Source: an uncultured virus (IMG/VR IMGVR_UViG_3300040816_000784) (Duplodnaviria; Heunggongvirae; Uroviricota; Caudoviricetes). Taken from it: a stretch of DNA of 64,000 nucleotides. Under the pieces are notes generated by a model. That model was not told where the DNA came from. It did not search any database and worked only from the letters and a program-made list of their open reading frames with translations. Every line of letters begins with the position of its first letter. The stretch's first letter is position 1. The stretch is from IMG/VR virus record IMGVR_UViG_3300040816_000784; one strand, given 5' to 3'. Shown here in pieces: positions 9,062-53,391 of the stretch. Both the position numbers and the translations under genes were made by a program.

Positions 9062-9715
9062 TTATCTAATTACCAGACAAGATGTTTTAAACAAAGTAAC
9101 ACCTGGGTGTTTTAGTTTAATAAACAATTCTAAGTCTTCTAATTCTTTTTCTTGCATGTATATAAATCTAGTTCTACGCACAGATCCATATACTTTATAT
9201 TCTTCCAATACGTTTTTTGCTGTGTCTATTGCTTTATGTACTTCTTCTAGTCTTTTAGCATAGTTACTAAAGCCACCACTTCCATAACTATAAGGTAAAA
9301 AGAAATGTACTTTAGTGTCATAATCTTTAAACCACTTTTGTTGTCTAATTTCGTATTCCTGATATCTAGTAGTTTGATTTACTTTTGTTTGTAGCATTTT
9401 AATGTGTGCTTTTGAGACAGGACCACTAATAGATACAACTTGATCGGCAAAAAAATGTAAAAACTCGTCTAGTAATTGTTTAGAATCTAAATATACTATC
9501 CTACTAAATGCTGATCTGATACTAGCATGTTTTGTATGATCAGGATAAAACCAATCAAGTATCTCTGACCAACGTTGACTATCATAAAATATAATATTAT
9601 TTACAAGTTTTACTTTGTATGGATACTTAGAATAATATACTTTATCTGAAGGAGTCAGTTGTGGGTAATCCTTTTTATTCAGCAGTTGTAATTTGTATGC
9701 CGTCGTCATACTCAA
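9062..9715 (-). CDS. Hypothetical protein
   Basis: 217-aa ORF co-oriented with and overlapping the clpA 3' end; start uncertain. Confidence 0.6.
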   Translation of the reverse strand: MSMTTAYKLQLLNKKDYPQLTPSDKVYYSKYPYKVKLVNNIIFYDSQRWSEILDWFYPDHTKHASIRSAFSRIVYLDSKQLLDEFLHFFADQVVSISGPVSKAHIKMLQTKVNQTTRYQEYEIRQQKWFKDYDTKVHFFLPYSYGSGGFSNYAKRLEEVHKAIDTAKNVLEEYKVYGSVRRTRFIYMQEKELEDLELFIKLKHPGVTLFKTSCLVIR

Positions 9716-11855
9716 TCCTTAATTTGGTATCTTTTAAATCTTCAAAAAGCATTTTCTTACTTAATGGTTTTTTAAGTTCACTCTCAAATAATCTTTTAAG
9801 AGGTCTTGCACCCATATTAGGGTTGTATCCTTCTTCAACAAAATATTTTACAGCACTAGCCATTACTTTAACTTTAATGCCTTTTACTTTTGTTTGCACA
9901 TTAAGTTCTTCTTCAAGACGTTTAACAATTTTCTTAATAACATCTGTGCCTAACTTATTAAATTTAATTGTGGCATCTATCCTGTTCCTAAACTCTGGAG
10001 TAAAGAAAGTGTTTACTGCTTTGATGTCTGTGTTCTTTTTCTTTTGATCTCCAAAACCAATCTTAAGTTTTTCTGCATCAGCGGCACCTAAGTTACTGGT
10101 CATTAGCAGTACAACATTTGTAAAGTCTACAGTTTTACCTGTACTACCTGTAAGTCTACCATCGTCCATAACTTGCAGTAACACTTGTAATACTTCTGGT
10201 GCGGCTTTCTCTACTTCATCTAGTAGCAACACACAATTAGGATACTGTTCCACTTCAGCAAGTAGTTGTCCTTGTCCTAGTTTACCTTCAGCATGTCCAA
10301 CATAACCAGGAGGAGCACCAATCAATTTACTCACACTATGACGTTCTTGGTATTCACTCATATCAAAACGTATAAGTTTGCTTTCTAGTTCTTGTGCTAA
10401 TTGTTTTGCTGTTTCAGTTTTACCTGTACCAGTTGGTCCTACTAATAGGAAACTGCCGATTGGCTTATTAGGTTCCCTTAGTCCTGCTTTAGCAACAAAG
10501 ATCGCTTCTACTATTTGATCTACAGCATCATCCTGTCCAAATACTTTTGTTTTAATTCGCTTGTCTAAACTTTTGTATCCTTCAGTACTGTCGATATCAA
10601 TAACATCTTTACCTATGTTACTCATCTTACTAATAACATTCAACACGTCGTCGATAACTACTTCTTCTCTGCCTGCTAGTTTAACAGTTGCACCACTGGC
10701 GTCAATAATATCAACTGCTTTGTCAGGGAAGTATTTATTTTTAATATATCTGTCTGCCAAATCAACACTTTTTTCTAGCAGTTCATCTGCATACTTTACA
10801 CTATGAAACTCTTCAAAGTATGGTTTTAATCCTATAATAATTTTTGTAGTATCTTCAACATTAGTAGGTTCAATATCTACACGTTGAAATCTACGCATTA
10901 GAGCTCTATCTTTTTCAAAGTGTGTGCTATATTCATCACTAGTTGTAGCACCCATAGTAAGTAGTTTACCTCTGCCTAGTATAGGCTTTAACAAGTTAGC
11001 AACGTCTACACTACTACCTCCAGCACTACCGGCACCCATTATCATGTGTATCTCATCAATAAACATAATAACATCTTTTCTCTCTTCTAGGCTCTCTAGG
11101 ACTATTTTAATACGTTCCTCAAAGTCTCCTCTATACCTAGTACCAGCAAGTAAGGCACCAATATCTAGGCTATAAACTGTTTTATCTTTAAGAGCATTGG
11201 GTACTTGACCCTCCACTATTTTCAATGCAAGTCCTTCTGCAATGGCTGTTTTACCTGTGCCAGGTTCACCAATTAGTATCGGATTATTTTTCTTACGCCT
11301 TGCTAGAATATGTACAATATCATTTACTTCTTCAGATCTACCTATTAGTGGATCTATTTCACTTTCTGCGGCTTTCTTATTTAAGTCAATTAAAAATTCT
11401 TCTGCTTCTTTCATACCAGTTTGTGATACACGTTTGGTTAAGCCTTCTACTACCGACAGTCTATCAATACCATTTAATTCACAAATATATTTTGCCATAG
11501 CATCGTCTTCGGATAGTATGCTTACAAATAAGTCTGGTGTGTTTATTTGATCTCTGGCACTAAAGATAACCTGTGCAAATGCACGTTGCATTACACGTTC
11601 TACACTTGTAGTTTTCTTGGGTCTACCCTCATACGGATTCTCTCCTATGAGATTATTTTGCTCTGGATCTTGCAAATAATTTTTTAAATCTTCTTTGGCT
11701 GTTGGCCAATCACATTCTATTGTTTCTAAAAGATCTACAACGTCCTCATCTTCTAATAAGCAATACATTAAATGCTCTAGTGTAACGTACTCGTGTTTCT
11801 GTTCTGATGCTAAGTTTATAGCACCAGTTATAATGTTATCTATTTCGTTTGCCAT
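9675..11855 (-). CDS. clpA: ATP-dependent Clp protease ATPase subunit ClpA
   Basis: N-domain HEYVTLEHL; Walker A motifs GEPGTGKT and GPTGTGKT; GTRYRGDFEER; IGAPPGYVG; KIGFG ClpP-docking loop; no ClpB middle domain. Confidence 0.95.
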   Translation of the reverse strand: MANEIDNIITGAINLASEQKHEYVTLEHLMYCLLEDEDVVDLLETIECDWPTAKEDLKNYLQDPEQNNLIGENPYEGRPKKTTSVERVMQRAFAQVIFSARDQINTPDLFVSILSEDDAMAKYICELNGIDRLSVVEGLTKRVSQTGMKEAEEFLIDLNKKAAESEIDPLIGRSEEVNDIVHILARRKKNNPILIGEPGTGKTAIAEGLALKIVEGQVPNALKDKTVYSLDIGALLAGTRYRGDFEERIKIVLESLEERKDVIMFIDEIHMIMGAGSAGGSSVDVANLLKPILGRGKLLTMGATTSDEYSTHFEKDRALMRRFQRVDIEPTNVEDTTKIIIGLKPYFEEFHSVKYADELLEKSVDLADRYIKNKYFPDKAVDIIDASGATVKLAGREEVVIDDVLNVISKMSNIGKDVIDIDSTEGYKSLDKRIKTKVFGQDDAVDQIVEAIFVAKAGLREPNKPIGSFLLVGPTGTGKTETAKQLAQELESKLIRFDMSEYQERHSVSKLIGAPPGYVGHAEGKLGQGQLLAEVEQYPNCVLLLDEVEKAAPEVLQVLLQVMDDGRLTGSTGKTVDFTNVVLLMTSNLGAADAEKLKIGFGDQKKKNTDIKAVNTFFTPEFRNRIDATIKFNKLGTDVIKKIVKRLEEELNVQTKVKGIKVKVMASAVKYFVEEGYNPNMGARPLKRLFESELKKPLSKKMLFEDLKDTKLRIEYDDGIQITTAE

Positions 11856-11863
11856 ACTACTAT

Positions 11864-12658
11864 TTACAATTCCTTGTCTTTAAATTGCTCTAATTTTCGT
11901 AACTGTTCTTCAGTTAAATTAGGTGCTGTTACTTCTACTAGTACAAATAAATTTCCATATGTACCAGCACGTTTTGGATTAGGCATACCCTTGCCACCGA
12001 GTCTTAACCTACTTCCAGGTTGTGTATGTTTAGGTACCTTAACTTCAAGTTGTTTACCATCAACATGCATAAATCTCACACTAGTTCCAAGCATTGCCTC
12101 AAAGTAATCTACTTGAATTCTAACTATTAAATCTCTACCTACAACATTCCAATTATTATCTCTGTTATGTACATGTACTCTACAAATTAAATCTCCAGGT
12201 GGCAAGTTATCATAGTTCATAGGGCCTTTACCATGCATAATAAATTTAGTACCTGTCTCAGTACCAGCCGGTATAATAAGTTTGAACTGTCCTAGTTCTG
12301 TTCTTATAATTTGTTCTGTGCCTGTATAGGCTTGCTCTAATTCAATGTGTATATCTACAACTGCATCTGGGTTTCTTGCTTGTCGCCTATGCCCAAATAT
12401 GTCTCCAAATATATCACCAAACGGATTACCACCTTGTTGGAATGGATTACCACCCATGTTAGCAAATGGATCTGGATTATCGTATTGGTGTTTCTTTTGA
12501 GGATCACTTAGTGTTTCATATGCTTCTTGTATCTTTTTAAATTGTTCAGGGTCACCTCCCTTGTCAGGGTGATGCTTACTTGCAAGTTTGCGATATGCTT
12601 TCTTAACTTCATTTGGTGTAGATGCGTGATTCACACCTAATGTTTCATAGTAATCCAT
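11864..12658 (-). CDS. DnaJ-class co-chaperone without zinc finger (CbpA-like)
   Basis: J-domain DYYETLGV...HPDKGG, G/F-rich linker, DnaJ C-domain; start placed at second ATG from promoter geometry. Confidence 0.9.
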
Positions 12659-12664
12659 AGTCAT

Positions 12665-35485: not shown

Positions 35486-35698
35486 TTACTTCTCGTTTAC
35501 AAATTCATATAGTTTCTTGGCTTCAGCAATAACTTCGTCTGTAGTGATGCTAATTATAGGGCAGTCTTCTGCCTTTCTAACTTCATCTGGTAATTGGAAG
35601 TGTGCATTCATGACTTGTTCTCTATTGTTTTCCAATAGGCCCATTGCCATTCCTAAGATATCGGTTCTTAATTCGAACCCTGATTTACTATTTGACAT
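35486..35698 (-). CDS. Small hypothetical phage protein
   Basis: 70 aa; AAGGAG SD; GATAAATA box at 35751-35758. Confidence 0.75.
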   Translation of the reverse strand: MSNSKSGFELRTDILGMAMGLLENNREQVMNAHFQLPDEVRKAEDCPIISITTDEVIAEAKKLYEFVNEK

Positions 35699-35803
35699 AA
35701 TTGTCTCCTTCTGTGTCAGTGTGTTGTATTACATTTTATAATACGAAAATTATTTATCTAACGATTATTATATGATAAATAATATTGAGTAATATTTTAA
35801 CTC

Positions 35804-35916
35804 ATCGTTCATCTCGAAAGAGACGGAAGTAGTTATAAGACGAAGGAACGCCGAAATCGTTCATTCACTCTAAATGTAGCAGTGAACGGAAGTAGGTTAT
35901 AGTACCGAAGGAACGC
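35804..35916 (+). ncRNA. Tandem glnA-motif (glutamine-I) riboswitch, aptamers at 35804-35851 and 35856-35916
   Basis: Each copy reads AUCGUUCA-[P2]-CGGAAGUA-[P3]-GAAGGAACGC; P1 CGUUC/GAACG; P2 UCUC-GAAA-GAGA or UUCACU..AGUGAA; AGUA/GAA E-loop. Confidence 0.88.
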
Positions 35917-35937
35917 ATCTTTGTAAAAGGAGATGAC

Positions 35938-36087
35938 ATGACTAAGTATCAAGAAACAGTACTCGTAAGACGTGCTGTACAAAAACAACTTAAGAAAGAA
36001 AAGAATGTGTCAACTCTGAGTTTCCCCACTATGGAGAAAAAATCAGATTGGCCTAAGTATATCACAGATAATCCTTTCTATCCTTAA
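35938..36087 (+). CDS. 49-aa basic peptide downstream of the riboswitch (not in ORF track)
   Basis: MTKYQETVLVRRAVQKQLKKEKNVSTLSFPTMEKKSDWPKYITDNPFYP; AAGGAG SD; terminator 5 nt after stop. Confidence 0.8.
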   Translation: MTKYQETVLVRRAVQKQLKKEKNVSTLSFPTMEKKSDWPKYITDNPFYP

Positions 36088-36092
36088 GACAT

Positions 36093-36124
36093 AAAAAAAG
36101 GGCGGTATTACTACTGCCCTTTTT
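36093..36124. terminator. Bidirectional intrinsic terminator
   Basis: AAAAAGGGCGGTA-TTAC-TACTGCCCTTTTT between convergent genes. Confidence 0.85.
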
Positions 36125-36142
36125 CCTATATATAATTCTTAA

Positions 36143-36772
36143 TTAAATATATGATACTTCGATTGCTTTTCTCTTTGTAGGGAAAACTAAATCTGGATTC
36201 AAGTGATGTTCTCTTCTTGGTCTTGATTCATCAGGAAATCCTACACCCATTAAGAGTACAGGCTTCTTGTCAATACCTAGTGTTCTTTGAATTTCACCTT
36301 TATCACAACAAGAGCAACATCCTGTACCATAGCCTAATAGACCTGATACCATATTTACATATCCTGCCGCAACACCAATTGCTGTTTGACGATCGCTTTC
36401 CATTGTATCTCCGTCCCAACTAATATCTGTTTTATTCTTAGCATCATCTTCGTTAAAATCTTCTGCAAAAACAATTAAGAGATTAGCAAGAGTTTGAGTA
36501 TTAGTTGTCAATCTATCGCCTTTAGGTGCTTTACCACCTTGCTTACCATCATGTATCATGAAGCCTTTTGTACTTCTATGTACTGCTTCGATTGTTTTTC
36601 TGTCTGTTATAAAGTAAGGCTTGAAAAAAGTAACGTTCTGCTTACTAGGAGCACCAGTAACTGCTTCTGCAATTAAATCTAAATCTTCTTGTGGAATAGT
36701 TTTGGATAGGTCCCAGTTTCTTTGAACGTGTTGACTTTTATGAATAGCCTTCTTAAGCATATTTCTAAACAT
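36143..36772 (-). CDS. Nitroreductase family protein
   Basis: QRNWDLSKTIPQEDL, APSKQN, LLGYGTGCC, LLMGVGFP. Confidence 0.8.
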   Translation of the reverse strand: MFRNMLKKAIHKSQHVQRNWDLSKTIPQEDLDLIAEAVTGAPSKQNVTFFKPYFITDRKTIEAVHRSTKGFMIHDGKQGGKAPKGDRLTTNTQTLANLLIVFAEDFNEDDAKNKTDISWDGDTMESDRQTAIGVAAGYVNMVSGLLGYGTGCCSCCDKGEIQRTLGIDKKPVLLMGVGFPDESRPRREHHLNPDLVFPTKRKAIEVSYI

Positions 36773-45464: not shown

Positions 45465-46958
45465 TTAGTTATCTAAAATGTTTTCAAAATTGAAGAAATC
45501 TTTGTAATCTTTTAGAGACTGGTCTGTGTCAGCACGTTTTTCATTGTCCAACAAGTTCTCTACAAAGTACCTACTTTGATTTCTCATAAAATGTGCTTGA
45601 TGTAAATTACTCAACATAGAAAATATCATTTTTCTATTATGATTTATTTTATCTTGACATTTTAACCAACGTTGATGTAATTCTGCAATTGGTACAGTTG
45701 ATATCTGTTCCATTTGATCTGCTATCATTCTCATACGTTCGCCGCTATCAGTTATGTTATCATAACTTTCATTTATGCCCAATTCTTCTGCTAACGTATA
45801 AAAACCTAATTTTTTAAATGCATCAACAAATCCTGCTTGGGCATAAACAACTAAAGCCTGGCCATGTGCTATTGGCTTTAAAACTTTTTCTGTAAAGAAA
45901 TAATTTTTTTCGTTTAGTTCACTTGTGCTTTCACAAGTAAGCCATACATAAGCATCGTTATCTAGTGGCATAAACTTTGATTCCGTATCACCAATGTATG
46001 GTGCATCTCCCTCAATAGTTTTACCTACTCTCATTTCGCTTACAAACTTGTTTACTAATTCTTGATTTATATGGGTTACAGGACCACCATAGTATTTTTT
46101 CATAACTGTTTGAAAAAATATTTCTGTGTAATGATTTCTAACTTCACCCTCACTAGGTGTTGCATCTGATCTAGTAGGATCAATACCAAATAGTCTCAAT
46201 GGTGGAAATGCACTTATGATATTTTTGTATGCTTTAATACGTCTTTCCCATAACAACCAAAGTAGTGCTACTCTGTTTTCTACTTCTCTACGATTTAAAA
46301 AGGTGAATGTGTGTTTTTTCTGTTTGAGTGAAACTGGATTTAATTTATATGTCTGATCACTTAAAGGATCACAAATCTTCTCTAATTGATTTGTATCCAT
46401 GTGGCCTAGCATCCACCAAGATACAATATACTTTAATGGTATCTCACCATTATCTTTTGCATATTGATCTATAACTTCTTGCCCTGCAAAATTATTACCT
46501 AAGAAAAATACTTTATCTTCAGGTATATCATACAAAGCCATTAAATTATATAATATTTCTAGACTGTCTTTGATAGTTGGACTTTCATCACAAAAACTAA
46601 TACATAAAGGCTTGTTTATTTCATCAAAATTTTCAAAGTAACTAATTAAAAAATCTATTTGTTGATCTCTAAAACTAAAATCTGTGAACAAGTTTCCAGC
46701 AGAATCAAAATTTGCATAACCACTTGTAGGAATAAAAAATTGTACTGCGATAAACTTATTATCACCTTTGTGTTCATTTAAAATTTCTCTAGTATATCCA
46801 CGTAATATAAAAACAGGATGATTTGATTCAATCAAAGGATGTTTGTGATTTGGTATGTTGCTTTCAATTTGCCACATTGAATATTGATCTACTTCAGAAT
46901 CTCCTAGATCAATTACATCACCATGTACTGTTTGTAAATTGCGGACGTCTATAGTCAT
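45465..46958 (-). CDS. Putative glycosyltransferase-like protein
   Basis: FLNRR...R, ES...FFTEKVLKPI...LGFYT; related to 53921..54868; function inferred. Confidence 0.5.
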   Translation of the reverse strand: MTIDVRNLQTVHGDVIDLGDSEVDQYSMWQIESNIPNHKHPLIESNHPVFILRGYTREILNEHKGDNKFIAVQFFIPTSGYANFDSAGNLFTDFSFRDQQIDFLISYFENFDEINKPLCISFCDESPTIKDSLEILYNLMALYDIPEDKVFFLGNNFAGQEVIDQYAKDNGEIPLKYIVSWWMLGHMDTNQLEKICDPLSDQTYKLNPVSLKQKKHTFTFLNRREVENRVALLWLLWERRIKAYKNIISAFPPLRLFGIDPTRSDATPSEGEVRNHYTEIFFQTVMKKYYGGPVTHINQELVNKFVSEMRVGKTIEGDAPYIGDTESKFMPLDNDAYVWLTCESTSELNEKNYFFTEKVLKPIAHGQALVVYAQAGFVDAFKKLGFYTLAEELGINESYDNITDSGERMRMIADQMEQISTVPIAELHQRWLKCQDKINHNRKMIFSMLSNLHQAHFMRNQSRYFVENLLDNEKRADTDQSLKDYKDFFNFENILDN

Positions 46959-47314: not shown

Positions 47315-47646
47315 AATATGCCTAACTGATATTTTCCTTCATCGCTGATTGCGTCTGGATTCCAAGGTGGATCAAATGTAAGTACTACCTTTACATGATT
47401 TAATCCGTTGACTGCCCTTGTGGCAAACTCTACTTCCATTGGTAGTATTTCTGCGGCTGGACAATTTGGTGAAGTAAGTGTCATTATAACCTGACAGTCA
47501 TATTCTTTGTTTACTTCAACGTTATAAATAAGTCCTAAGTCATAAACGTTTAAATTTATTTCAGGATCAAATACTCTTTTTAAATTTGCTACAACTAAGT
47601 CTAAGAATTCTTCTTGTAATGACTTATCTTCTCTAGTGTCTTCCAT
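47311..47646 (-). CDS. sufT: DUF59 Fe-S assembly protein (SufT-like)
   Basis: VFDPEI..NVYDLGLIY, MTLTSPNCP, FDPPW. Confidence 0.9.
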   Translation of the reverse strand: MEDTREDKSLQEEFLDLVVANLKRVFDPEINLNVYDLGLIYNVEVNKEYDCQVIMTLTSPNCPAAEILPMEVEFATRAVNGLNHVKVVLTFDPPWNPDAISDEGKYQLGIL

Positions 47647-48830
47647 AATCCCTCTACTAGTTGTACACAATCGTGTTCGTTGTTATATGGTGCTGAACTA
47701 ACTCTCAATACACCGGTGTTTTCTTTATTAAATCTTCTACTGGCAGGCTGGGCACATAAGTGACCTGTCCTAACACAGACTTTATCAAAGTTTAAATATG
47801 ATGCAATATCACTTGGATTTATGCCTGGCGTTACAAAACTGTATACACTTCGTGGACCTATATCACCAATTAGTTTTAATTGTTCAATATCAAACAAACC
47901 TTTATCATTTAACATGTTAAAGAAGTCTGCTTCACATTCTTGTATATCTTTGTAACTAATATCTTGTATCCATTTAGCCGCGGCTCCTATGGCATGTACT
48001 CCTGCTACGTTGGGTGTACCTGCTTCTACTCTTTTGAAGTCAGGGTATAATGAATACTGACTGAAGTCTGCAAAACTTACAGTTCCCCCACCTATGTCAT
48101 GACTGCCTTCAGCAAGATCTACAAATCCGCCTCTGTGAAATAATACACCGGTACCAGTAGTAGCATACATTTTATGTCCACTAAATACTAGCCAGTCAAT
48201 ATTATTTTTTGCTACACTAATTGGCTCGTGTGCTATACTTTGACATACATCTAATATAACATCACAGTCATACTCTTTGGCAATCCTAATCATATCTTGC
48301 CATTTTAATTTTATACCAGTTAAGTTACTTTGTGTTAAAAATGACACAATGCTACCTGGATTATCTTTTACTGCTTTTGTGAAATCTTCTATACTGACAT
48401 CACCGTGATCACTTGCTGGCACTACAACGATTTCATATTTGTGTTGTAGCCAAGGCAATATGTTACTGTGATGTTCAAGTTCTGTTAGTATTACTTTACG
48501 TTTACTTTCTTTATAATGTCTAGCAATAATATTAAGTCCTTGTGTTGTACCAGCAGTAAAACTTACTTCACTAATATCAGACTCAATTAAATCTGCAATA
48601 TGTTGTCTTGCTTGATCAAACTTATCACTTGCTATACTACTAGTTTCAAAATCACCTCTATGTACATTTGCTCTGTAGTTGTAATGATAATCACTGACAG
48701 CCTTAATTGCACTATCAACTGTTTGACTACTAGCGGCATTATCTAGATATACTAAATCAGAATATGCTAAACTAGGGAAACAATTTCTTATCTCCTTTAT
48801 TGCTTTTGTTTTATTGTATACGTTTAGCAT
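47601..48830 (-). CDS. sufS: Cysteine desulfurase, group II
   Basis: YLDNAASSQ, ANVHRG, EHHSNILPW, SGHKM, EAGTP, RTGHLCAQP. Confidence 0.93.
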   Translation of the reverse strand: MLNVYNKTKAIKEIRNCFPSLAYSDLVYLDNAASSQTVDSAIKAVSDYHYNYRANVHRGDFETSSIASDKFDQARQHIADLIESDISEVSFTAGTTQGLNIIARHYKESKRKVILTELEHHSNILPWLQHKYEIVVVPASDHGDVSIEDFTKAVKDNPGSIVSFLTQSNLTGIKLKWQDMIRIAKEYDCDVILDVCQSIAHEPISVAKNNIDWLVFSGHKMYATTGTGVLFHRGGFVDLAEGSHDIGGGTVSFADFSQYSLYPDFKRVEAGTPNVAGVHAIGAAAKWIQDISYKDIQECEADFFNMLNDKGLFDIEQLKLIGDIGPRSVYSFVTPGINPSDIASYLNFDKVCVRTGHLCAQPASRRFNKENTGVLRVSSAPYNNEHDCVQLVEGLWKTLEKISHYKKNS

Positions 48831-50080
48831 AAAAAACTCTCAATTAAAATTTCTTCTATGTTTTCAACACCTCGGCTTTGTAAGTAATACTTTTGATGTT
48901 CATTTATATTACTAATAGTACAACCATGTTGGCATTGTATTTCTTTTGTTTTAATATCTAGTATTGGTCTAGTATGCATTTTAGTATTCTTGTTTAACAT
49001 TAGATTTTGATTGTTCATAGTACCATTAAAATTTGTACTCATTGAACCAACATCATAACGACCAATAAAACTAGTGTTGGCGTATTCGTTACCAACATTT
49101 TTAATATCTATATTACTGTAATTATCAACATCGTTGCTAATATGATGTATGAACTGGTGATAATCGTTTCCTTTGTGAATATTGTTTCTACCTATCACTT
49201 CAACCTTGTTACCAGATGAACTCTGTATGTAAAAATTTTCTTGTGTATATTGGCTACCAGTGTTTGTAGATTTAATTGTTAGTTCGCTATTAGGGTGGCA
49301 AATAAATACACTATCAAACAAACTCCAACCACCTTTATCTTTTGTTGTTCTATCTATTTCAAGTTTACTACCTTCACGTAAAATATAAATGCTGTAATTC
49401 ATTTGTCCAGCACTAGTTCTAACTTTTTCTTTTAGTTTTACACTAACGTTATGTTGTATATCAAACATAGTTGTATTGCTGGATAATGTGTTTTCTTTAA
49501 GTTCATTTAAGTAATTTACAGTCAATGGTTTCTTTTCATACAACTGTTTACTACTAGCAGGAAATACCATTATGTTTACAAAAGGACTAAGTGAATATGT
49601 AGTGTTTGTAAAATTATCCATTTGCTTGATATACTTTATATACTCCTTTTGTTTTGAAGTATTAGTTGTAATAGCATCAAGTATAGTTACACTAGGCGAC
49701 CTATTGTGAGAGATATTGTTACTAGCAAGAACTGTGCCATCTACAATAACCATTTCATTTGATTTATCTGCTACCCATTCAAAATCACCATAAGATGATT
49801 TTCTATCTGTTCTAGGAGCAATCTCTAAACCATATAGTTTATGTAGATTAGAAAAATTAAATTGTTCGCTTTTAGGATTAGGCAACCCTGTTTGTTTAAG
49901 ATATTTTAAATTATCTATATATGGTTTTTCAAAAACATTAGCATAACTTACAACATTTTTATCATCAAGTAATCCTGGTAATAATGTTTCTGTGGTGAAT
50001 TCAAACAACTCAGATAATTTGTAGTTGTCTGTTTTTTGAGGGTCTGCTAGTAATACTTCTGCAAATAAATTCTTATACAT
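48824..50080 (-). CDS. sufD: SufD-like protein (divergent)
   Basis: GLPNPKSEQFNFSNL; C-terminal TRPILDI..IQCQHGCTI...YYLQSRG; position between sufC and sufS. Confidence 0.82.
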   Translation of the reverse strand: MYKNLFAEVLLADPQKTDNYKLSELFEFTTETLLPGLLDDKNVVSYANVFEKPYIDNLKYLKQTGLPNPKSEQFNFSNLHKLYGLEIAPRTDRKSSYGDFEWVADKSNEMVIVDGTVLASNNISHNRSPSVTILDAITTNTSKQKEYIKYIKQMDNFTNTTYSLSPFVNIMVFPASSKQLYEKKPLTVNYLNELKENTLSSNTTMFDIQHNVSVKLKEKVRTSAGQMNYSIYILREGSKLEIDRTTKDKGGWSLFDSVFICHPNSELTIKSTNTGSQYTQENFYIQSSSGNKVEVIGRNNIHKGNDYHQFIHHISNDVDNYSNIDIKNVGNEYANTSFIGRYDVGSMSTNFNGTMNNQNLMLNKNTKMHTRPILDIKTKEIQCQHGCTISNINEHQKYYLQSRGVENIEEILIESFLC

Positions 50081-50768
50081 TTTCAAACCCACTACTAAAA
50101 ATTTTATCTGCTAATGACTTATCACCAATTTGTACACCGTCTTTTTTAAGTAAGACAACAGCATCTGGGTTTAAACCATCAATGAGTTTTTCGTAGTGAG
50201 TAACAACAACCAATGTGTTGTTTTCGTTTTTCCAGGTAGATAGTTTTTCTATAAGTGACTTTATACCGTCAACATCTAAACCACTATCTGGTTCATCTAA
50301 CATTGCAATTTTAGTGTCTAACATAAGCATTTGTATGAGCTCATTCTTTTTCTTTTCGCCACCACTTGCGTCTGTGTTTAAGTTTCTTTTATCCCATTCT
50401 TCTGGCAAGCCTAATTGTGTACTAATATCTCTAAACTTATCTAAGTTTTCTTTTAAGTCGATTGCTTTAATATTGTTTGCTTGTCTGATAAACTGGAAGT
50501 TACTTAATCCTGGAATACTAGTAGGTGCTTGAAAACCTATAAAGATTCCTAGTTTTGCACGTTCATCAGTTTCAAGTTCTGTTAAGTCTATACCATTAAA
50601 TTCTACATCACCGTGTGTATCAAGATCAGGTCTTCCCATGATACCATGTAATAATGTGCTTTTGCCTACGCCATTAGCACCCATAACAACATAAGTCTTA
50701 CCTTCCTCAAAGGTAATATCAACATTGCTGAATATATCTTTAATACTAAAATTTTGTAGTTTTAACAT
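50073..50768 (-). CDS. sufC: Fe-S assembly ABC ATPase
   Basis: GANGVGKST, SGGEKKKNE, LDEPDSGLDVD, VTHY. Confidence 0.95.
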   Translation of the reverse strand: MLKLQNFSIKDIFSNVDITFEEGKTYVVMGANGVGKSTLLHGIMGRPDLDTHGDVEFNGIDLTELETDERAKLGIFIGFQAPTSIPGLSNFQFIRQANNIKAIDLKENLDKFRDISTQLGLPEEWDKRNLNTDASGGEKKKNELIQMLMLDTKIAMLDEPDSGLDVDGIKSLIEKLSTWKNENNTLVVVTHYEKLIDGLNPDAVVLLKKDGVQIGDKSLADKIFSSGFENV

Positions 50769-50774
50769 AAGGTT

Positions 50775-50803
50775 ATTATATACTATTTCTCTTCGCTTGT
50801 CAA
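50775..50803 (-). promoter_or_regulatory. Consensus sigma70 promoter for sufCDST (leaderless)
   Basis: TTGACA-17 nt-TATAAT, 6 nt before ATG 50768. Confidence 0.85.
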
Positions 50804-50941
50804 TTTTAAAATATAGTTATTGGCATCTTCTTCGGTGAGAAATTTTCTCTCCTTAATGATAACATTAGCATCATTATATAAAACTGCTCTATACGATATT
50901 TTATCACCTTCAAAATGTGTTGTAACAACTTGCCAATTCAT
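50783..50941 (-). CDS. 52-aa ORF between sufB and sufC (not in ORF track)
   Basis: [56 protein letters not shown] overlap with sufB stop. Confidence 0.65.
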
Positions 50942-52383
50942 CCTACTGCTCCTTCTAATGTAACACCTAATAAACCATTCGCCTCAGCGGCAAACTCTAA
51001 AGGAAGTTTTTGAAAAACGTCCTTACAAAAACCATTTACAATCAAGTTCATTGCATCGTCTTCACTTAATCCTCTGCTTTGCAAATAATACATTTGCTCT
51101 TCACTGATTTTACCAGCACTTGCTTCATGCTCTAAAACAGCAGAATCGTTTTGACATGTTACATAAGGTAATGTAAGTGCTCTACTATCCTGTAGCATTA
51201 AACTATCACACTTAGTATAGTTCCTGGCATTGTGAGCACCTGGATTTACTTTAACAGAACCTCTATATGTATTTGTACTATCGCCAAAACTAATACCTTT
51301 AGATATAATGGTGCTTTTGGTGTTCTTACCAATGTGTATCATTTTAGTTCCTGTGTCTGCTTGTTGTTTACCTTTGGTGACAGCAACACTAAAAAATTCT
51401 CCTATACTGCCTTCGCCTTTTAATATACAACTTGGATATTTCCAAGTTACTGCTGAACCAGTTTCAACCTGTGTCCAACTTACTTTTGAATTCTTGCCTT
51501 CACACTTTGCACGTTTAGTAACAAAATTATATACTCCACCTACGCCGTTCTCATCTCCTGGATACCAGTTTTGTACTGTTGAATATTTTATTTCAGCATT
51601 ATCTAGGGTCACTAGCTCTACACACGCCGCATGTAACGTGTTTTCATCGTATGCTGGTGCTGTACACCCTTCTAAGTAACTAACGTAACTGTCCTCGTCT
51701 GCTATAATAAGTGTGCGTTCAAACTGCCCTGTGTTACGAGCATTTATGCGGAAATATGTATTAAGTTCCATAGGACATCTTACACCCTTTGGAATATAGC
51801 AAAATGTTCCGTCTGTGAATACTGCTGAGTTTAGTGTAGCAAAGTAATTATCTGTATATGGTATAACACTACCTAAATACTTTTTTACTAAGTCTGGATG
51901 TGATTGTATGGCTTCGCTGATGCTACCAAATACAATACCATACTTTTCTAGTTCTGCTTTGAATGTTGTAGCAACACTAACACTATCAAATACTGCGTCA
52001 ATGGCTACTGAAGGAATAACATTTGGATCTTTTTCAATACCAAGTAATGCGTCACGTTCGTGTAATGGTACACCTAACTTTTCAAATGTATCAAATATTT
52101 CTTGTGGGATATCATCTTTGTCTCTGCTTTTAGGTGCTGAATAATAACTGAGGGCCTGATAGTCAATTGGATCATAATTTAATTCACTCCAATCAGGCTC
52201 AGCCATTTCTTGCCAACGTTTAAATGCTTTTAGTCTAAATTCCAATAACCATTCGGGCTCTTCTTTAATTGCACTGATATTTCTTATAGTGGATTCATCA
52301 AGGCCAGGAGGTAAACTTACCGAATCTGTTTCGGTACTAAACCCTTCTTTGTATTTGGTTTGATTTAAATTATTTACTGTCAT
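50938..52383 (-). CDS. sufB: Fe-S cluster scaffold SufB
   Basis: [50 protein letters not shown]. Confidence 0.97.
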
Positions 52384-52947: not shown

Positions 52948-53391
52948 CTACTTGATTGAAATCTTTTGTGGTTTCATTGCATCAGGAACATTCTTAAACA
53001 ATGAAATTCTCAAAATACCGTCTTCAAGTTTGGCATCTTTAACTTCTACATACTCTGCTAATTTGAAAGTTCTCACGAAGTTTCTTTCAGCAATACCCTT
53101 ATGTAACCATTCTCTATTGTCACTGTCAAGTACTTCTGACTTACCAGTAATTTTTAGTGTGCCATCTTCAAGTTCAATATCAATGTCTGCTTTCTTAAAT
53201 CCTGCAACTGCAAGAGTAATTTCATAGACATCTTCTGCATCTTTTGAGATGTTGTAAGGGGGATAACCAGATGTATTTACAAATGAAGGTTCATTAAAGA
53301 ATTCATTTACAAGTTGGTCGAAGCCAATTGAGGCTTTATAAAGTGGGGAAAGTGTGTCGGTCGTGACACGGAATTGTTGTTTTGCTACCAT
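52948..53391 (-). CDS. Small heat-shock protein (Hsp20/IbpA-like)
   Basis: GYPPYNI, LAVAGF, LHKGIAERNF, LEDGIL. Confidence 0.95.
   Translation of the reverse strand: MVAKQQFRVTTDTLSPLYKASIGFDQLVNEFFNEPSFVNTSGYPPYNISKDAEDVYEITLAVAGFKKADIDIELEDGTLKITGKSEVLDSDNREWLHKGIAERNFVRTFKLAEYVEVKDAKLEDGILRISLFKNVPDAMKPQKISIK

What the first reader, a model, noticed from the sequence alone, without database searches (positions are those of the whole stretch)
35774..36124. Phage-encoded tandem glutamine riboswitch driving an unannotated 49-aa peptide
Seen: a self-contained plus-strand unit in a minus-strand region: GATAAATA box (35774), two aptamers sharing AUCGUUCA..CGGAAGUAG..CGAAGGAACGC with different P2/P3 stems that both still pair, AAGGAG SD, a 49-aa basic ORF ending WPKYITDNPFYP, and a terminator. 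Known: this matches the glnA RNA motif (glutamine-I riboswitch), often tandem, which in cyanobacteria controls the glutamine synthetase inactivating factor gifB. Inference: the phage senses host nitrogen status and makes a small effector, possibly acting on GS, PII or lysis timing. The other genes do not suggest a cyanophage.
Basis: partly seen in the sequence, partly recalled or inferred. Interest (0 to 1): 0.85.

Follow-up and report, generated by a model that had tools for sequence, protein, structure and literature searches.

The report
Phage glutamine riboswitch gating a microprotein
A large uncultured marine phage carries two genuine glutamine-sensing RNA switches in a row that most likely let a small, conserved, previously undescribed 49-residue protein be made only when the infected cell is rich in glutamine.

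Summary
Rfam's glutamine riboswitch model (RF01739) hits 35804-35854 (58 bits) and 35856-35919 (60 bits), against a cut-off of 35. The 49-codon ORF 35938-36087 is a real gene. Homologues lie in 34 viral contigs and 125 database clusters. They share an invariant C-terminus (YITDNPFYP) in which almost only third codon positions vary.

The tail of the second aptamer pairs with the Shine-Dalgarno sequence in every relative examined, with compensatory changes. This is the arrangement proposed for the glutamine-ON gifB switch of Synechocystis.

All 25 distinct viral versions carry a [G/T]ATAAATA box, a T4-late-type promoter motif. The chromosomal versions in small-genome marine Gammaproteobacteria do not.

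The peptide matches no Pfam or PHROG family and is not recognisably IF7/IF17. Its target is unknown. A regulator of nitrogen assimilation is the best guess and is unproven.

Phage-borne and tandem glutamine riboswitches are already published. The effector family, the promoter swap and a recurrent 70-aa partner gene were not in the papers I searched. This scan has already noted the same peptide family on other DNA (e1-6026991, e1-6027003).

The parts
35774..35781 (+). GATAAATA promoter-like box (T4-late-type motif)
   Evidence: A [G/T]ATAAATA box lies 7-30 nt upstream of aptamer 1 in 25 of 25 distinct viral upstream sequences and in 0 of 9 bacterial ones. In the window, 13 of 21 KATAAATA hits fall in the 7.8% of sequence that is intergenic (binomial p 4.5e-10), and 11 of them lie within 200 nt upstream of a same-strand gene.
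35786..35804 (+). Small 5' hairpin (UGAGU...ACUCA) between the box and aptamer 1
   Evidence: Read directly. By eye, 17 of 25 distinct viral upstream sequences have a hairpin at the same place with a different stem sequence, such as GUAAC...GUUAC. This was not tested formally.
35804..35854 (+). Glutamine riboswitch aptamer 1
   Evidence: RF01739, 58.0 bits, model positions 1-53 of 53.
35856..35919 (+). Glutamine riboswitch aptamer 2
   Evidence: RF01739, 60.0 bits, model positions 1-53 of 53, with a longer P2 loop.
35916..35935 (+). Expression platform: the aptamer-2 tail CAUCUUU (35916-22) pairs with GGAGAUG (35929-35), which holds the Shine-Dalgarno sequence
   Evidence: The MFE fold shows the helix. 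The same helix forms in 16 distinct viral tails and in the bacterial tails. On alignment A4 (16 viral + 3 bacterial tails), 94% of cells are paired (0 of 500 shuffles reach this), and 3 of 7 pairs change on both sides (2 of 500 shuffles).
35938..36087 (+). 49-aa microprotein gene (N-terminal basic helix, invariant C-terminal YITDNPFYP)
   Evidence: Homologues are in 34 viral loci, 125 clusters and 31 representatives at 50% identity. In the last 9 codons the variable columns by codon position are 1/0/8. AF2 predicts a helix at residues 3-27.
36095..36124 (.). Intrinsic-terminator hairpin, flanked by A-run and U-run, shared with the convergent minus-strand nitroreductase-family gene
   Evidence: -17.6 kcal/mol, z = -4.5. 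Sequence. The nitroreductase-family gene ends at 36143.
35486..35698 (-). Divergent 70-aa helical protein gene, a recurrent neighbour of phage glutamine-riboswitch units
   Evidence: blastp finds homologues beside riboswitch units in 18 of 154 viral loci. 113 homologues exist, all unnamed. It was not found in 201 bacterial genomes searched.
35751..35758 (-). Second GATAAATA box, facing the 70-aa gene
   Evidence: 53 nt upstream of the 70-aa gene's start.

Best explanation
This is a self-contained phage gene unit. A T4-late-type promoter box comes first, then a short 5' hairpin, then two complete type-1 glutamine aptamers in tandem. A Shine-Dalgarno-sequestering helix follows, built from the 3' tail of the second aptamer. 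The unit ends with a 49-codon gene and a terminator.

At low glutamine, the tail (CAUCUUU) pairs with GGAGAUG and hides the ribosome-binding site. When L-glutamine binds, the C that starts the tail is drawn into the aptamer's long-range pair. The helix then opens and the microprotein is translated, so the switch is glutamine-ON.

Shown here:
- aptamer identity
- conservation and covariation of the sequestering helix
- protein-level selection on the ORF
- the conserved promoter-like box
- sharing of the aptamer-peptide unit with chromosomes of small-genome marine Gammaproteobacteria

Inferred: the direction of switching, by analogy with the Synechocystis gifB switch, and use of the box as a late promoter.

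The microprotein has a basic N-terminal helix and an invariant C-terminal peptide motif. It most likely binds a conserved host protein of nitrogen assimilation. A glutamine-synthetase-type enzyme is my first guess, at about 0.3. This would make it a functional analogue of cyanobacterial IF7/IF17, not a homologue. That last step is a guess and is not shown.
For: Aptamers: (58 and 60 bits against a cut-off of 35).

ORF is real:
- 34 viral loci hold homologues at 45-88% identity.
- By my regex, 29 of the 34 loci have two aptamers directly upstream, 4 have one, and 1 is cut off.
- Rfam confirmed 6 tandem and 3 single among the 9 viral loci I submitted.
- Alignment A1 (23 of the 35 sequences, the distinct ones) has an invariant M1, T2, P39 and Y41-P49.
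- In the last 9 codons of 29 sequences, the variable columns by codon position are 1/0/8.
- Indels are whole codons.

Expression platform. The published model for the same architecture was read in PMC6212724, section 20.

Promoter-like box.

Bacterial counterparts:
- One MAG hit lies next to genes I read from their sequences as pssA/ilvC/ilvH/ilvI; these were not run against a family library.
- 11 of 201 genomes of that order have a hit, 7 of them strong.
- 9 of the 11 loci have tandem RF01739 directly upstream.
- They have the same sequestering tail and a terminator.

RNA libraries: in four seawater metatranscriptome runs (coded as four studies, all 2025, possibly one campaign), contigs lay on the unit with 0-1 other letters each, for example 35812-36146 in X1. 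This is weak support, because contigs from RNA libraries can hold DNA.

Hint towards a nitrogen-assimilation target:
- In that bacterial order, RF01739 passes the cut-off in 64 of 151 genomes.
- In the 30 loci returned, the gene downstream is GSII-like in 18, GSI in 3, gltB in 3, Gcw_chp in 4 and CP_ATPgrasp in 2. Representatives were checked with Pfam.
- In the 7 peptide carriers that have riboswitch hits, the only matches over the cut-off are the pair in front of the peptide.
- A GSII-like gene is present in all 5 carriers tested.
Against: - No ligand-binding or expression experiment exists for this unit.
- Nothing here shows the direction of switching (ON or OFF) directly.
- The whole leader is not more stable than shuffled sequence (z = 0.15).
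- The role of aptamer 1 is unexplained, because its tail does not touch the SD.
- The peptide has no Pfam or PHROG match and no usable ESM-Atlas neighbour, so the target is a guess.
- The complementary-distribution argument rests on 7 carrier genomes of unknown completeness.
- The peptide occurs in only 11 of 201 genomes of the order.
- KATAAATA is not over-represented in raw count (21 hits against 14.4 +/- 3.7 expected; 6 of 100 shuffles reach 21). Only its placement is non-random, and my gene map for that test is a crude ORF map. I dropped six doubtful plus-strand ORFs and the antisense ORF and added the peptide gene.
- The host of this phage is not known.
Confidence: 0.72

Rival explanations
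1. The switch and ORF are as described, but the microprotein acts on something unrelated to nitrogen assimilation, such as translation, transcription, nucleotide metabolism or lysis timing. Glutamine would then serve only as a read-out of host nutritional state. The protein may work together with the phage-only 70-aa helical protein.
For: - No homology to any nitrogen regulator.
- The 70-aa family recurs beside riboswitch units that drive quite different small ORFs. It was not found in 201 bacterial genomes, which suggests a phage-specific process.
- The Melnitz authors speculated on lysis timing (PMC9004378, passage read).
Against: - The peptide with the same riboswitch also sits alone on bacterial chromosomes, without the 70-aa gene. 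Its basic function therefore does not need phage partners.
- Every other gene found under this riboswitch in that bacterial order that has a recognised role is in nitrogen assimilation (GS types, gltB).
Confidence: 0.35
2. The peptide is a diverged member of the IF7/IF17 (DUF4278) glutamine-synthetase inactivating factors, as the first reader's gifB analogy implies.
For: - The same riboswitch class precedes gifB in 25 of 28 cyanobacterial genomes (PMC6212724, passage read).
- 2 of the 23 aligned members (L004, L008) carry a YRG-type motif in the variable middle.
- Other phage units drive clear YRG-repeat peptides.
Against: - No Pfam match at E<=10 in any of 23 members.
- The window's peptide has no YRG motif.
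- The invariant part, LPxYITDNPFYP, is not among the motifs I recall for IF7/IF17. This rests on recall and was not tested.
- A profile search of 1.84 billion representatives found only 38-69-aa relatives of the same family, plus three longer hits. The two I read (P0241, P0254) are repeat artefacts. The third (P0253, 410 aa, five matched stretches) I did not read.
Confidence: 0.08
3. The riboswitch works the other way (glutamine-OFF), or works on transcription or RNA stability and not on translation initiation.
For: - Direction was not measured.
- In the same bacterial order, the aptamers in front of GS genes have a different platform and lie about 80 nt from the start codon. The class can therefore be wired in other ways.
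Against: - The only conserved structure after aptamer 2 is the SD-sequestering helix. It uses the very nucleotides that glutamine binding recruits in the published structure-based model.
- No terminator-like hairpin lies between the aptamer and the start codon, which are only 18 nt apart.
- Reporter assays for the gifB switch gave glutamine/ammonium-ON (PMC6212724, passages read).
Confidence: 0.1
4. The RNA alone is the product (a glutamine-binding sRNA or decoy) and the ORF is incidental, or the stretch is bacterial DNA and not phage DNA.
For: - The aptamer parts reach high depth in one metatranscriptome run (X5).
- The unit also exists on bacterial chromosomes.
Against: - Third-position-only variation in the invariant C-terminus, whole-codon indels and a conserved SD and ATG.
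- The window encodes prohead protease, virion proteins, spanins, clamp loader and PhoH/MazG-type phage genes.
- The unit carries the phage-type box that the bacterial copies lack.
Confidence: 0.03

Closest known systems
Type-1 glutamine riboswitch of the Synechocystis gifB (IF17) leader (Klaehn et al. 2018, PMC6212724; passages read)
   Same: - Same aptamer family (RF01739).
- A small basic protein as the regulated product.
- The tail after P1 can pair with the ribosome-binding site.
- Proposed glutamine-ON translational control.
   Different: - Two aptamers here, against one there.
- The product has no DUF4278 or other Pfam match.
- A phage-type [G/T]ATAAATA box replaces an NtcA-controlled promoter.
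- The carriers are a phage and marine Gammaproteobacteria, not cyanobacteria.
Glutamine riboswitch of Methylophilales phage Melnitz and pelagimyophages (Buchholz et al. 2022, PMC9004378; passages read)
   Same: A glutamine riboswitch encoded by a marine phage of a heterotroph. I confirmed RF01739 at 52.8 bits in MZ577097.1.
   Different: - Melnitz has a single aptamer, and its authors read it as part of the tmRNA gene, controlling ssrA.
- In that record I find an unannotated 32-codon plus-strand ORF that starts 23 nt after the aptamer, behind a GGGGAGAG motif.
- That ORF is of a different small-ORF family from the window's.
- The window has no tmRNA.
glnA RNA in T4-like cyanophages (e.g. S-CREM1, PMC9964418 Table 4, read; statement in PMC9602691, passage read)
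   Same: A phage-borne RF01739 element.
   Different: - Those papers list the RNA only and name no regulated gene.
- The host is a cyanobacterium.
- The window's replication gene is closest to the PA5oct-type jumbo phages of Proteobacteria.
Tandem glnA RNAs in marine metagenomes (Weinberg et al. 2010, PMC2864571; passage read)
   Same: Tandem arrangement, proposed there to give a more digital response.
   Different: That paper lists PII, GS, GOGAT, ammonium transporters and PMT1479 as associated genes. In the passages I read, this peptide family is not mentioned. I did not see its additional files.

Membership tests
Glutamine riboswitch type 1 (glnA RNA, Rfam RF01739) | Covariance-model score at or above the curated gathering score (35 bits), over the full model | tested here: met
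   58.0 and 60.0 bits, positions 1-53 of 53 for both.
Glutamine riboswitch type 1 (glnA RNA, Rfam RF01739) | P1/P2/P3 three-stem layout with the conserved AUCGUUCA, ACGGAAGUAG and CGAAGGAACGC segments | tested here: met
   The cmscan alignments show all three stems paired, no non-canonical pair is flagged, and the conserved segments are identical to the consensus.
Glutamine riboswitch type 1 (glnA RNA, Rfam RF01739) | Lies in the 5' leader of a same-strand gene, with an expression platform | tested here: met
   The start codon is 18 nt after aptamer 2. The SD-sequestering helix is conserved with covariation.
Glutamine riboswitch type 1 (glnA RNA, Rfam RF01739) | Selective binding of L-glutamine with a conformational change | not testable with these tools
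   Needs in-line probing, ITC or a reporter assay.
GS inactivating factors IF7/IF17 (Pfam DUF4278) | Sequence match to the DUF4278 model | tested here: not met
   No Pfam family at E<=0.001 for the window peptide. None at E<=10 for 23 family members beyond two chance-level hits to unrelated families.
GS inactivating factors IF7/IF17 (Pfam DUF4278) | YRG-type motif. That this is the family's hallmark is my recollection, not a tool result. | tested here: not met
   Absent from the window peptide. Present only in the L004 and L008 members of the 23 aligned.
GS inactivating factors IF7/IF17 (Pfam DUF4278) | Binds and inactivates glutamine synthetase | not testable with these tools
Needs a binding or activity assay.
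Glutamine-II / Downstream-peptide riboswitch (Rfam RF01704) | Score at or above the gathering score of RF01704 | tested here: not met
   The only window hits at gathering threshold are the two RF01739 matches.
T4-type late promoter (TATAAATA) | The octamer lies just upstream of the transcript start and recurs in front of phage genes | tested here: inconclusive
   GATAAATA or TATAAATA is present in 25 of 25 distinct viral units. Its placement in the window is non-random (13 of 21 hits intergenic, p 4.5e-10). However, the raw count is not enriched and no transcript start was mapped.
T4-type late promoter (TATAAATA) | The phage encodes a gp55-type late sigma factor | not tested
   The window's own assembly is not held. 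I did not search for one in the window.

The most novel reading that the evidence does not exclude
The MTKYQ...YITDNPFYP microproteins are a new class of glutamine-induced, trans-acting regulators of nitrogen assimilation. They would be the heterotroph and phage counterpart of the cyanobacterial GS-inactivating factors, but unrelated to them in sequence.

On this reading, small-genome marine Gammaproteobacteria use the microprotein in place of a riboswitch on the GS mRNA itself. Large marine phages have placed the unit under a late promoter and paired it with a phage-only 70-aa helical protein, so as to reset host nitrogen flow late in infection.

More broadly, nearly all phage glutamine riboswitches may gate microproteins of at least seven unrelated families, including the case published as a tmRNA regulator.
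Probability: 0.25. Interest if true: 0.75.

Novelty: new variant of a known kind. Interest (0 to 1): 0.58.

Why it matters
Glutamine is the cell's main read-out of nitrogen status. Here a phage reads it directly with RNA and answers with one tiny protein.

The sensor class is known. What phage copies control has not been worked out in the papers I could search. One paper assigns the switch to a tmRNA, and others list only the RNA.

This unit gives a concrete, testable effector. The gene is 49 codons, with an invariant nine-residue C-terminus, many natural variants, and chromosomal counterparts in abundant uncultured marine Gammaproteobacteria. Finding its target would show how these streamlined bacteria feed glutamine status back onto metabolism, and why large phages copy that circuit.

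A compact natural glutamine-ON translational switch with two aptamers could also serve as a biosensor part.

Tried and rejected
**Searches of phage records and own assembly**
- blastn/megablast of the unit and of 12 kb around it, and tblastn of the peptide at E<=10, against 50,697 GenBank phage records: no match.
- The window's own assembly is not held. The nearest virus record, G001, has no RF01739 match.

**Family and neighbour searches for the peptide**
- Pfam, PHROGs and ESM Atlas gave nothing usable.
- Complex prediction (GS-like enzyme x2 plus peptide) was not available, so no binding test was made.

**Fused or longer forms**
- A profile search of 1.84 billion representatives gave only 38-69-aa proteins plus three longer hits.
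- The two I read, P0241 and P0254, are translated repeats. I did not read P0253.

**Synteny**
- 27 of 34 viral loci share none of 15 window neighbours within 3 kb. The surroundings therefore give no functional clue beyond the 70-aa gene.

**The 70-aa protein**
- AF2 gives a confident helical hairpin (pLDDT 88).
- Foldseek against the PDB has no match at E<=0.001.

**Direction of transfer**
- An ML tree of 36 distinct units (of 44 extracted) puts the 6 bacterial units on one side of one well-supported branch (100/99).
- The tree is unrooted and its backbone is weak (74/72), so no donor can be named.

**Carrier genomes**
- GlnE was not found in 0 of 5 carrier genomes, and PII was found in 5 of 5.
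- I first read this as 'GS without adenylylation control'. However, the 464-aa GS-like enzyme scores below every NCBIfam equivalog cut-off, so I do not lean on it.

**RNA contigs**
- No contig of the four runs covers 35740-35783, between the two divergent units.
- The contigs on the 70-aa gene stop at 35725-35733.
- A gap in contigs proves nothing, so I draw no transcript start from it.

**Other**
- Ames & Breaker 2011 (PMC3127080) is not held, so I could not read what they report on tandem aptamers or associated ORFs.
- The antisense ORFs 35833-35988 and 35949-36065 were rejected. The conservation pattern fits the plus-strand frame.
Full report
**Observation.**
- Rfam release 15 finds just two matches in the whole 64-kb window. 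Both are to the glutamine riboswitch RF01739, both cover all 53 model positions, and both are on the plus strand.
- They lie at 35804-35854 (58.0 bits, E 3.5e-10) and 35856-35919 (60.0 bits, E 9.3e-11), against a gathering score of 35.
- A 49-codon ORF runs from 35938 to 36087 behind AAGGAG.
- A 13-bp G+C-rich hairpin with a U-run sits at 36095-36124. Its energy is -17.6 kcal/mol, z = -4.5, and 0 of 200 shuffles fold as well.
- All flanking genes are on the minus strand.

**What genome this is.**
- PHROG and Pfam scans of the window's ORFs give prohead protease, virion structural proteins, Rz-like spanins, a gp44-type clamp loader, a DNA-polymerase fragment, PhoH, MazG and Hsp20.
- They also give many metabolic genes: ClpB, DnaJ, a SufB/C/D/S set, a ketoacyl synthase, NAD synthase, a GMP-reductase/IMPDH-family enzyme and UDP-glucose dehydrogenase.
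- The clamp loader is closest, at 56% identity, to the 284-288-kb Pseudomonas phages of the PA5oct group. Next come Atu_ph07 and other jumbo phages. Melnitz is at 38%.
- SufB is closest (61%) to that of the jumbo Microcystis phage MaAM05.
- No GenBank phage record matches the unit or its surroundings at the DNA level, or the peptide by tblastn.
- Clusters of peptide homologues include contigs of 203, 320 and 322 kb.
- I therefore call this a large, probably jumbo, uncultured marine phage whose host is not known.

**The ORF is a real gene.**
- A back-translated scan of IMG/VR found 34 loci encoding relatives at 45-88% identity.
- A profile search of the 5.8-billion-cluster protein collection found 125 proteins of 40-83 aa. 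All are unnamed and none has a Pfam domain.
- An exhaustive HMMER search of 1.84 billion representatives found 31. All are 38-69 aa except three longer hits. The two I read, P0241 and P0254, are translated repeats. I did not read P0253.
- In the alignment of the 23 distinct sequences (of 35), M1, T2, P39 and Y41-P49 are invariant. The N-terminus reads MTKYQ..RAVK..LK. The middle varies in sequence and in length by whole codons.
- Across 29 sequences (24 viral including the window, 5 bacterial), the last nine codons vary at codon positions 1/2/3 in 1/0/8 columns. This is the signature of selection on the protein, not on an RNA or the opposite strand.
- AlphaFold2 with this alignment gives a helix at residues 3-27 (pLDDT above 90 for the first 20) and a less confident tail.
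- A sister branch of the family ends in ...NNPWY.

**The switch is tied to the gene.**
- By a regex for the three conserved aptamer segments, 29 of the 34 viral loci have two aptamers directly upstream. Four have one, and one locus is cut 45 nt upstream.
- Rfam at gathering threshold confirmed this for the nine viral loci I submitted: six tandem and three single.

**Expression platform.**
- In the window, the MFE fold pairs the tail of aptamer 2 (CAUCUUU, 35916-22) with GGAGAUG (35929-35), which contains the Shine-Dalgarno sequence.
- The same helix forms in all 16 distinct viral tails and in the bacterial ones. Two variants change both strands together: CAAUCU with AGAUUG, and CAUUUUCC with GGAGAAUG.
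- On the alignment of 19 distinct tails, 94% of cells pair (0 of 500 shuffles reach that). Three of seven pairs change on both sides (2 of 500 shuffles). Sliding the partner by 1-3 columns drops pairing to 34-72%.
- Klaehn et al. proposed this for the gifB switch. The conserved C after P1 makes the long-range pair with G on glutamine binding. The nucleotides next to it otherwise pair with the ribosome-binding site, and their reporters were induced by ammonium (PMC6212724, passages read).
- I therefore read the unit as glutamine-ON at translation initiation. The direction is inferred, not measured.
- What aptamer 1 adds is open. Its P1 3' strand can pair with the P1 5' strand of aptamer 2 (centroid). 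Occupancy of one aptamer could then help the other fold. That is my speculation.

**Promoter.**
- Every one of the 25 distinct viral upstream sequences has GATAAATA or TATAAATA 7-30 nt before aptamer 1, usually right after the terminator of the preceding gene. None of the nine bacterial upstream sequences has it.
- TATAAAT(A) is the T4-type late promoter motif. This is my knowledge, and it is also quoted in the methods of PMC9004378.
- In the window the octamer is not enriched in number: 21 hits against 14.4 +/- 3.7 expected, and 6 of 100 shuffles reach 21.
- Its placement is non-random. 13 of 21 hits fall in the 7.8% of the window that my ORF map leaves intergenic (binomial p 4.5e-10). 11 of them lie within 200 nt upstream of a same-strand gene. 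That map is crude, and I dropped seven ORFs from the list and added the peptide gene.
- A second copy at 35751-35758 faces the other way, towards the 70-aa gene.
- Between the box and aptamer 1 there is a short hairpin (35786-35804). By eye, 17 of the 25 viral sequences have one at that place with other stem sequences.

**Bacterial counterparts.**
- The scan of one genome per GTDB species used the single pattern YITDNPFY. It found one locus, in a MAG titled uncultured Gammaproteobacteria. The locus is at a contig end and is followed by genes I read from their translated sequences as pssA, ilvC, ilvH and ilvI, without a family-library check, so it is chromosomal.
- Notes from earlier sessions of this scan said that SAR86-type bacteria share the unit. 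Prompted by them, I searched 201 genomes of that MAG's order, which are 0.7-1.8 Mb in size.
- 11 of the 201 have a match, 7 of them strong.
- 9 of the 11 loci have tandem RF01739 directly upstream. One locus is cut by a contig end, and one weak hit has none.
- The bacterial peptides are 46 aa and end in YVTDNPFYP. They have the same sequestering tail and their own terminator.
- Their neighbours are unrelated housekeeping genes.
- The tool does not name the order. The label SAR86 comes from the earlier notes and from PMC12379486, which reports RF01739 in SAR86 (passage read). I did not verify it.
- An ML tree of 36 distinct units places the six bacterial ones on one side of a well-supported branch (100/99). 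It is unrooted with a weak backbone, so one transfer is enough and its direction is open.

**A hint about function.**
- In the same order, RF01739 passes its cut-off in 64 of 151 genomes.
- In the 30 loci returned, the first downstream gene is a 311-336-aa GSII-like enzyme in 18, GSI in 3, the GOGAT large subunit in 3, a Gcw_chp protein in 4 and a circularly permuted ATP-grasp protein in 2. These classes were assigned by similarity of their N-termini, and seven representatives were checked with Pfam.
- In the seven peptide carriers that have riboswitch hits, the only matches over the cut-off are the pair at the peptide gene. All five carriers tested still have the GSII-like gene elsewhere.
- So glutamine control sits either on the GS mRNA or on this peptide. 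This fits a peptide that passes the glutamine signal to a nitrogen-assimilation enzyme, as IF17 does in cyanobacteria.
- It is a correlation in few, possibly incomplete, genomes. I give a GS-type target about 0.3.
- The binding prediction I set up could not be run.

**Wider pattern in phages.**
- In 116 of these 120, an ATG-started ORF of at least 15 codons begins 19-32 nt after the last aptamer. My criterion is permissive, and three of the four misses have under 80 nt of downstream sequence held.
- The ORFs fall into several unrelated small families. Ten carry the window's C-terminal motif and six belong to the NNPWY branch. The others include YRG-repeat peptides and at least five further types.
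- In the published Melnitz genome, RF01739 scores 52.8 bits. It is annotated inside the tmRNA gene.
- Twenty-three nt after it, behind GGGGAGAG, lies an unannotated 32-codon plus-strand ORF of one of those other families.

**The 70-aa neighbour.**
- The minus-strand gene 35486-35698 has homologues next to riboswitch units in 18 of the 154 viral loci. They occur divergently as here (L062), after the small ORF, or joined behind a short MIYRGI... leader directly after the aptamer (L099, L131, L135).
- It has 113 unnamed homologues of 42-89 aa.
- It was not found in 201 genomes of the bacterial order.
- It folds confidently as a helical hairpin (pLDDT 88).
- It has no PDB match at E<=0.001.

**Expression.**
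- Contigs of four seawater metatranscriptome libraries lay on the unit with 0-1 other letters each. The four are coded as four studies, all from 2025, and may be one campaign.
- Examples are X1 35812-36146, X4 35866-36042, X2 35833-36069 in two pieces, and X5 35905-36053. Contigs also lay on the 70-aa gene.
- Such contigs can contain DNA and show neither ends nor strand, so this is weak support.

**What is known and what is new.**
- Already published: the aptamer class, its tandem form (PMC2864571), its ON-switch model and small-protein product (PMC6212724), and its presence in phages of cyanobacteria and of SAR11/OM43 (PMC9004378, PMC9602691, PMC9964418).
- My full-text searches returned no paper that, from its listing or the passages I read, describes this peptide family or its C-terminal motif. 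The searches were: 'glutamine riboswitch'+phage, 22 papers; +viral+'small protein', 1; RF01739+virus, 5; 'glnA RNA'+cyanophage, 4; SAR86+'glutamine riboswitch', 1; the string DNPFYP, 0.
- Subscription papers and the supplements I did not open are not covered.
- This scan has noted the same family before on other DNA (e1-6026991, e1-6027003; related units e1-6081739, e1-6001223).

**Verdict.**
- This is a real, complete, conserved unit.
- It is a new variant of a known kind: a known sensor and mechanism with a new effector family, a phage-type promoter and a recurrent phage partner gene.
- Interest 0.58.

Noticed in passing
window 35486-35698 (-), with a GATAAATA box at 35751-35758 (-): A 70-aa helical protein gene is transcribed divergently from the riboswitch unit. 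Its family recurs beside glutamine-riboswitch units that drive quite different small ORFs, in 18 of 154 viral loci. In L099, L131 and L135 it follows the aptamer directly, behind a short MIYRGI... leader. It was not found in 201 bacterial genomes, and no fold match was found.
   Followed up: partly
L035-L154 (IMG/VR loci): 116 of 120 viral glutamine-aptamer loci have a small ORF starting 19-32 nt downstream. These ORFs fall into at least seven unrelated families of about 30-90 aa. 33 of the 120 loci have two aptamers by my regex.
   Followed up: partly
L209:570-668 (+) = MZ577097.1, about 46469-46567: In the published Melnitz phage, the riboswitch is annotated inside the tmRNA gene. It is followed 23 nt later by an unannotated 32-codon ORF behind GGGGAGAG. 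The record instead annotates a minus-strand hypothetical protein across the same place.
   Followed up: partly
L177-L206 (genomes of the order of G002): In small-genome marine Gammaproteobacteria, RF01739 (often tandem) precedes GSII-like, GSI, gltB, Gcw_chp and CP_ATPgrasp genes. The platform is different: a GUUAAAC...GUUUAAC hairpin about 80 nt before the start codon. Peptide carriers have the riboswitch only at the peptide.
   Followed up: partly
L164 and L165 (genomes G060, G056): A more distant 53-aa paralogue in bacteria has a similar N-terminus, a different C-terminus, a tandem riboswitch upstream and a longer SD-sequestering hairpin.
   Followed up: no
L012:3180-3600: About 440 nt without a convincing ORF lie between the peptide's terminator and the 70-aa homologue. 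They contain isolated pieces that resemble aptamer segments (AUCGUUCA, ACGGAAGU) far apart. This may be a degenerate or interrupted aptamer.
   Followed up: no
window 47601-52383 (-); also 9675-12664 (-) and 52948-53391 (-): The phage carries a SufS-like aminotransferase, SufD, a SufC-like ATPase and SufB in a row. It also carries ClpB, DnaJ and Hsp20. SufB is 61% identical to that of the jumbo Microcystis phage MaAM05.
   Followed up: no
window 36095-36124: The terminator hairpin is flanked by an A-run and a U-run, and it lies between convergent genes. It probably ends both the peptide mRNA and the minus-strand nitroreductase-family gene.
   Followed up: no
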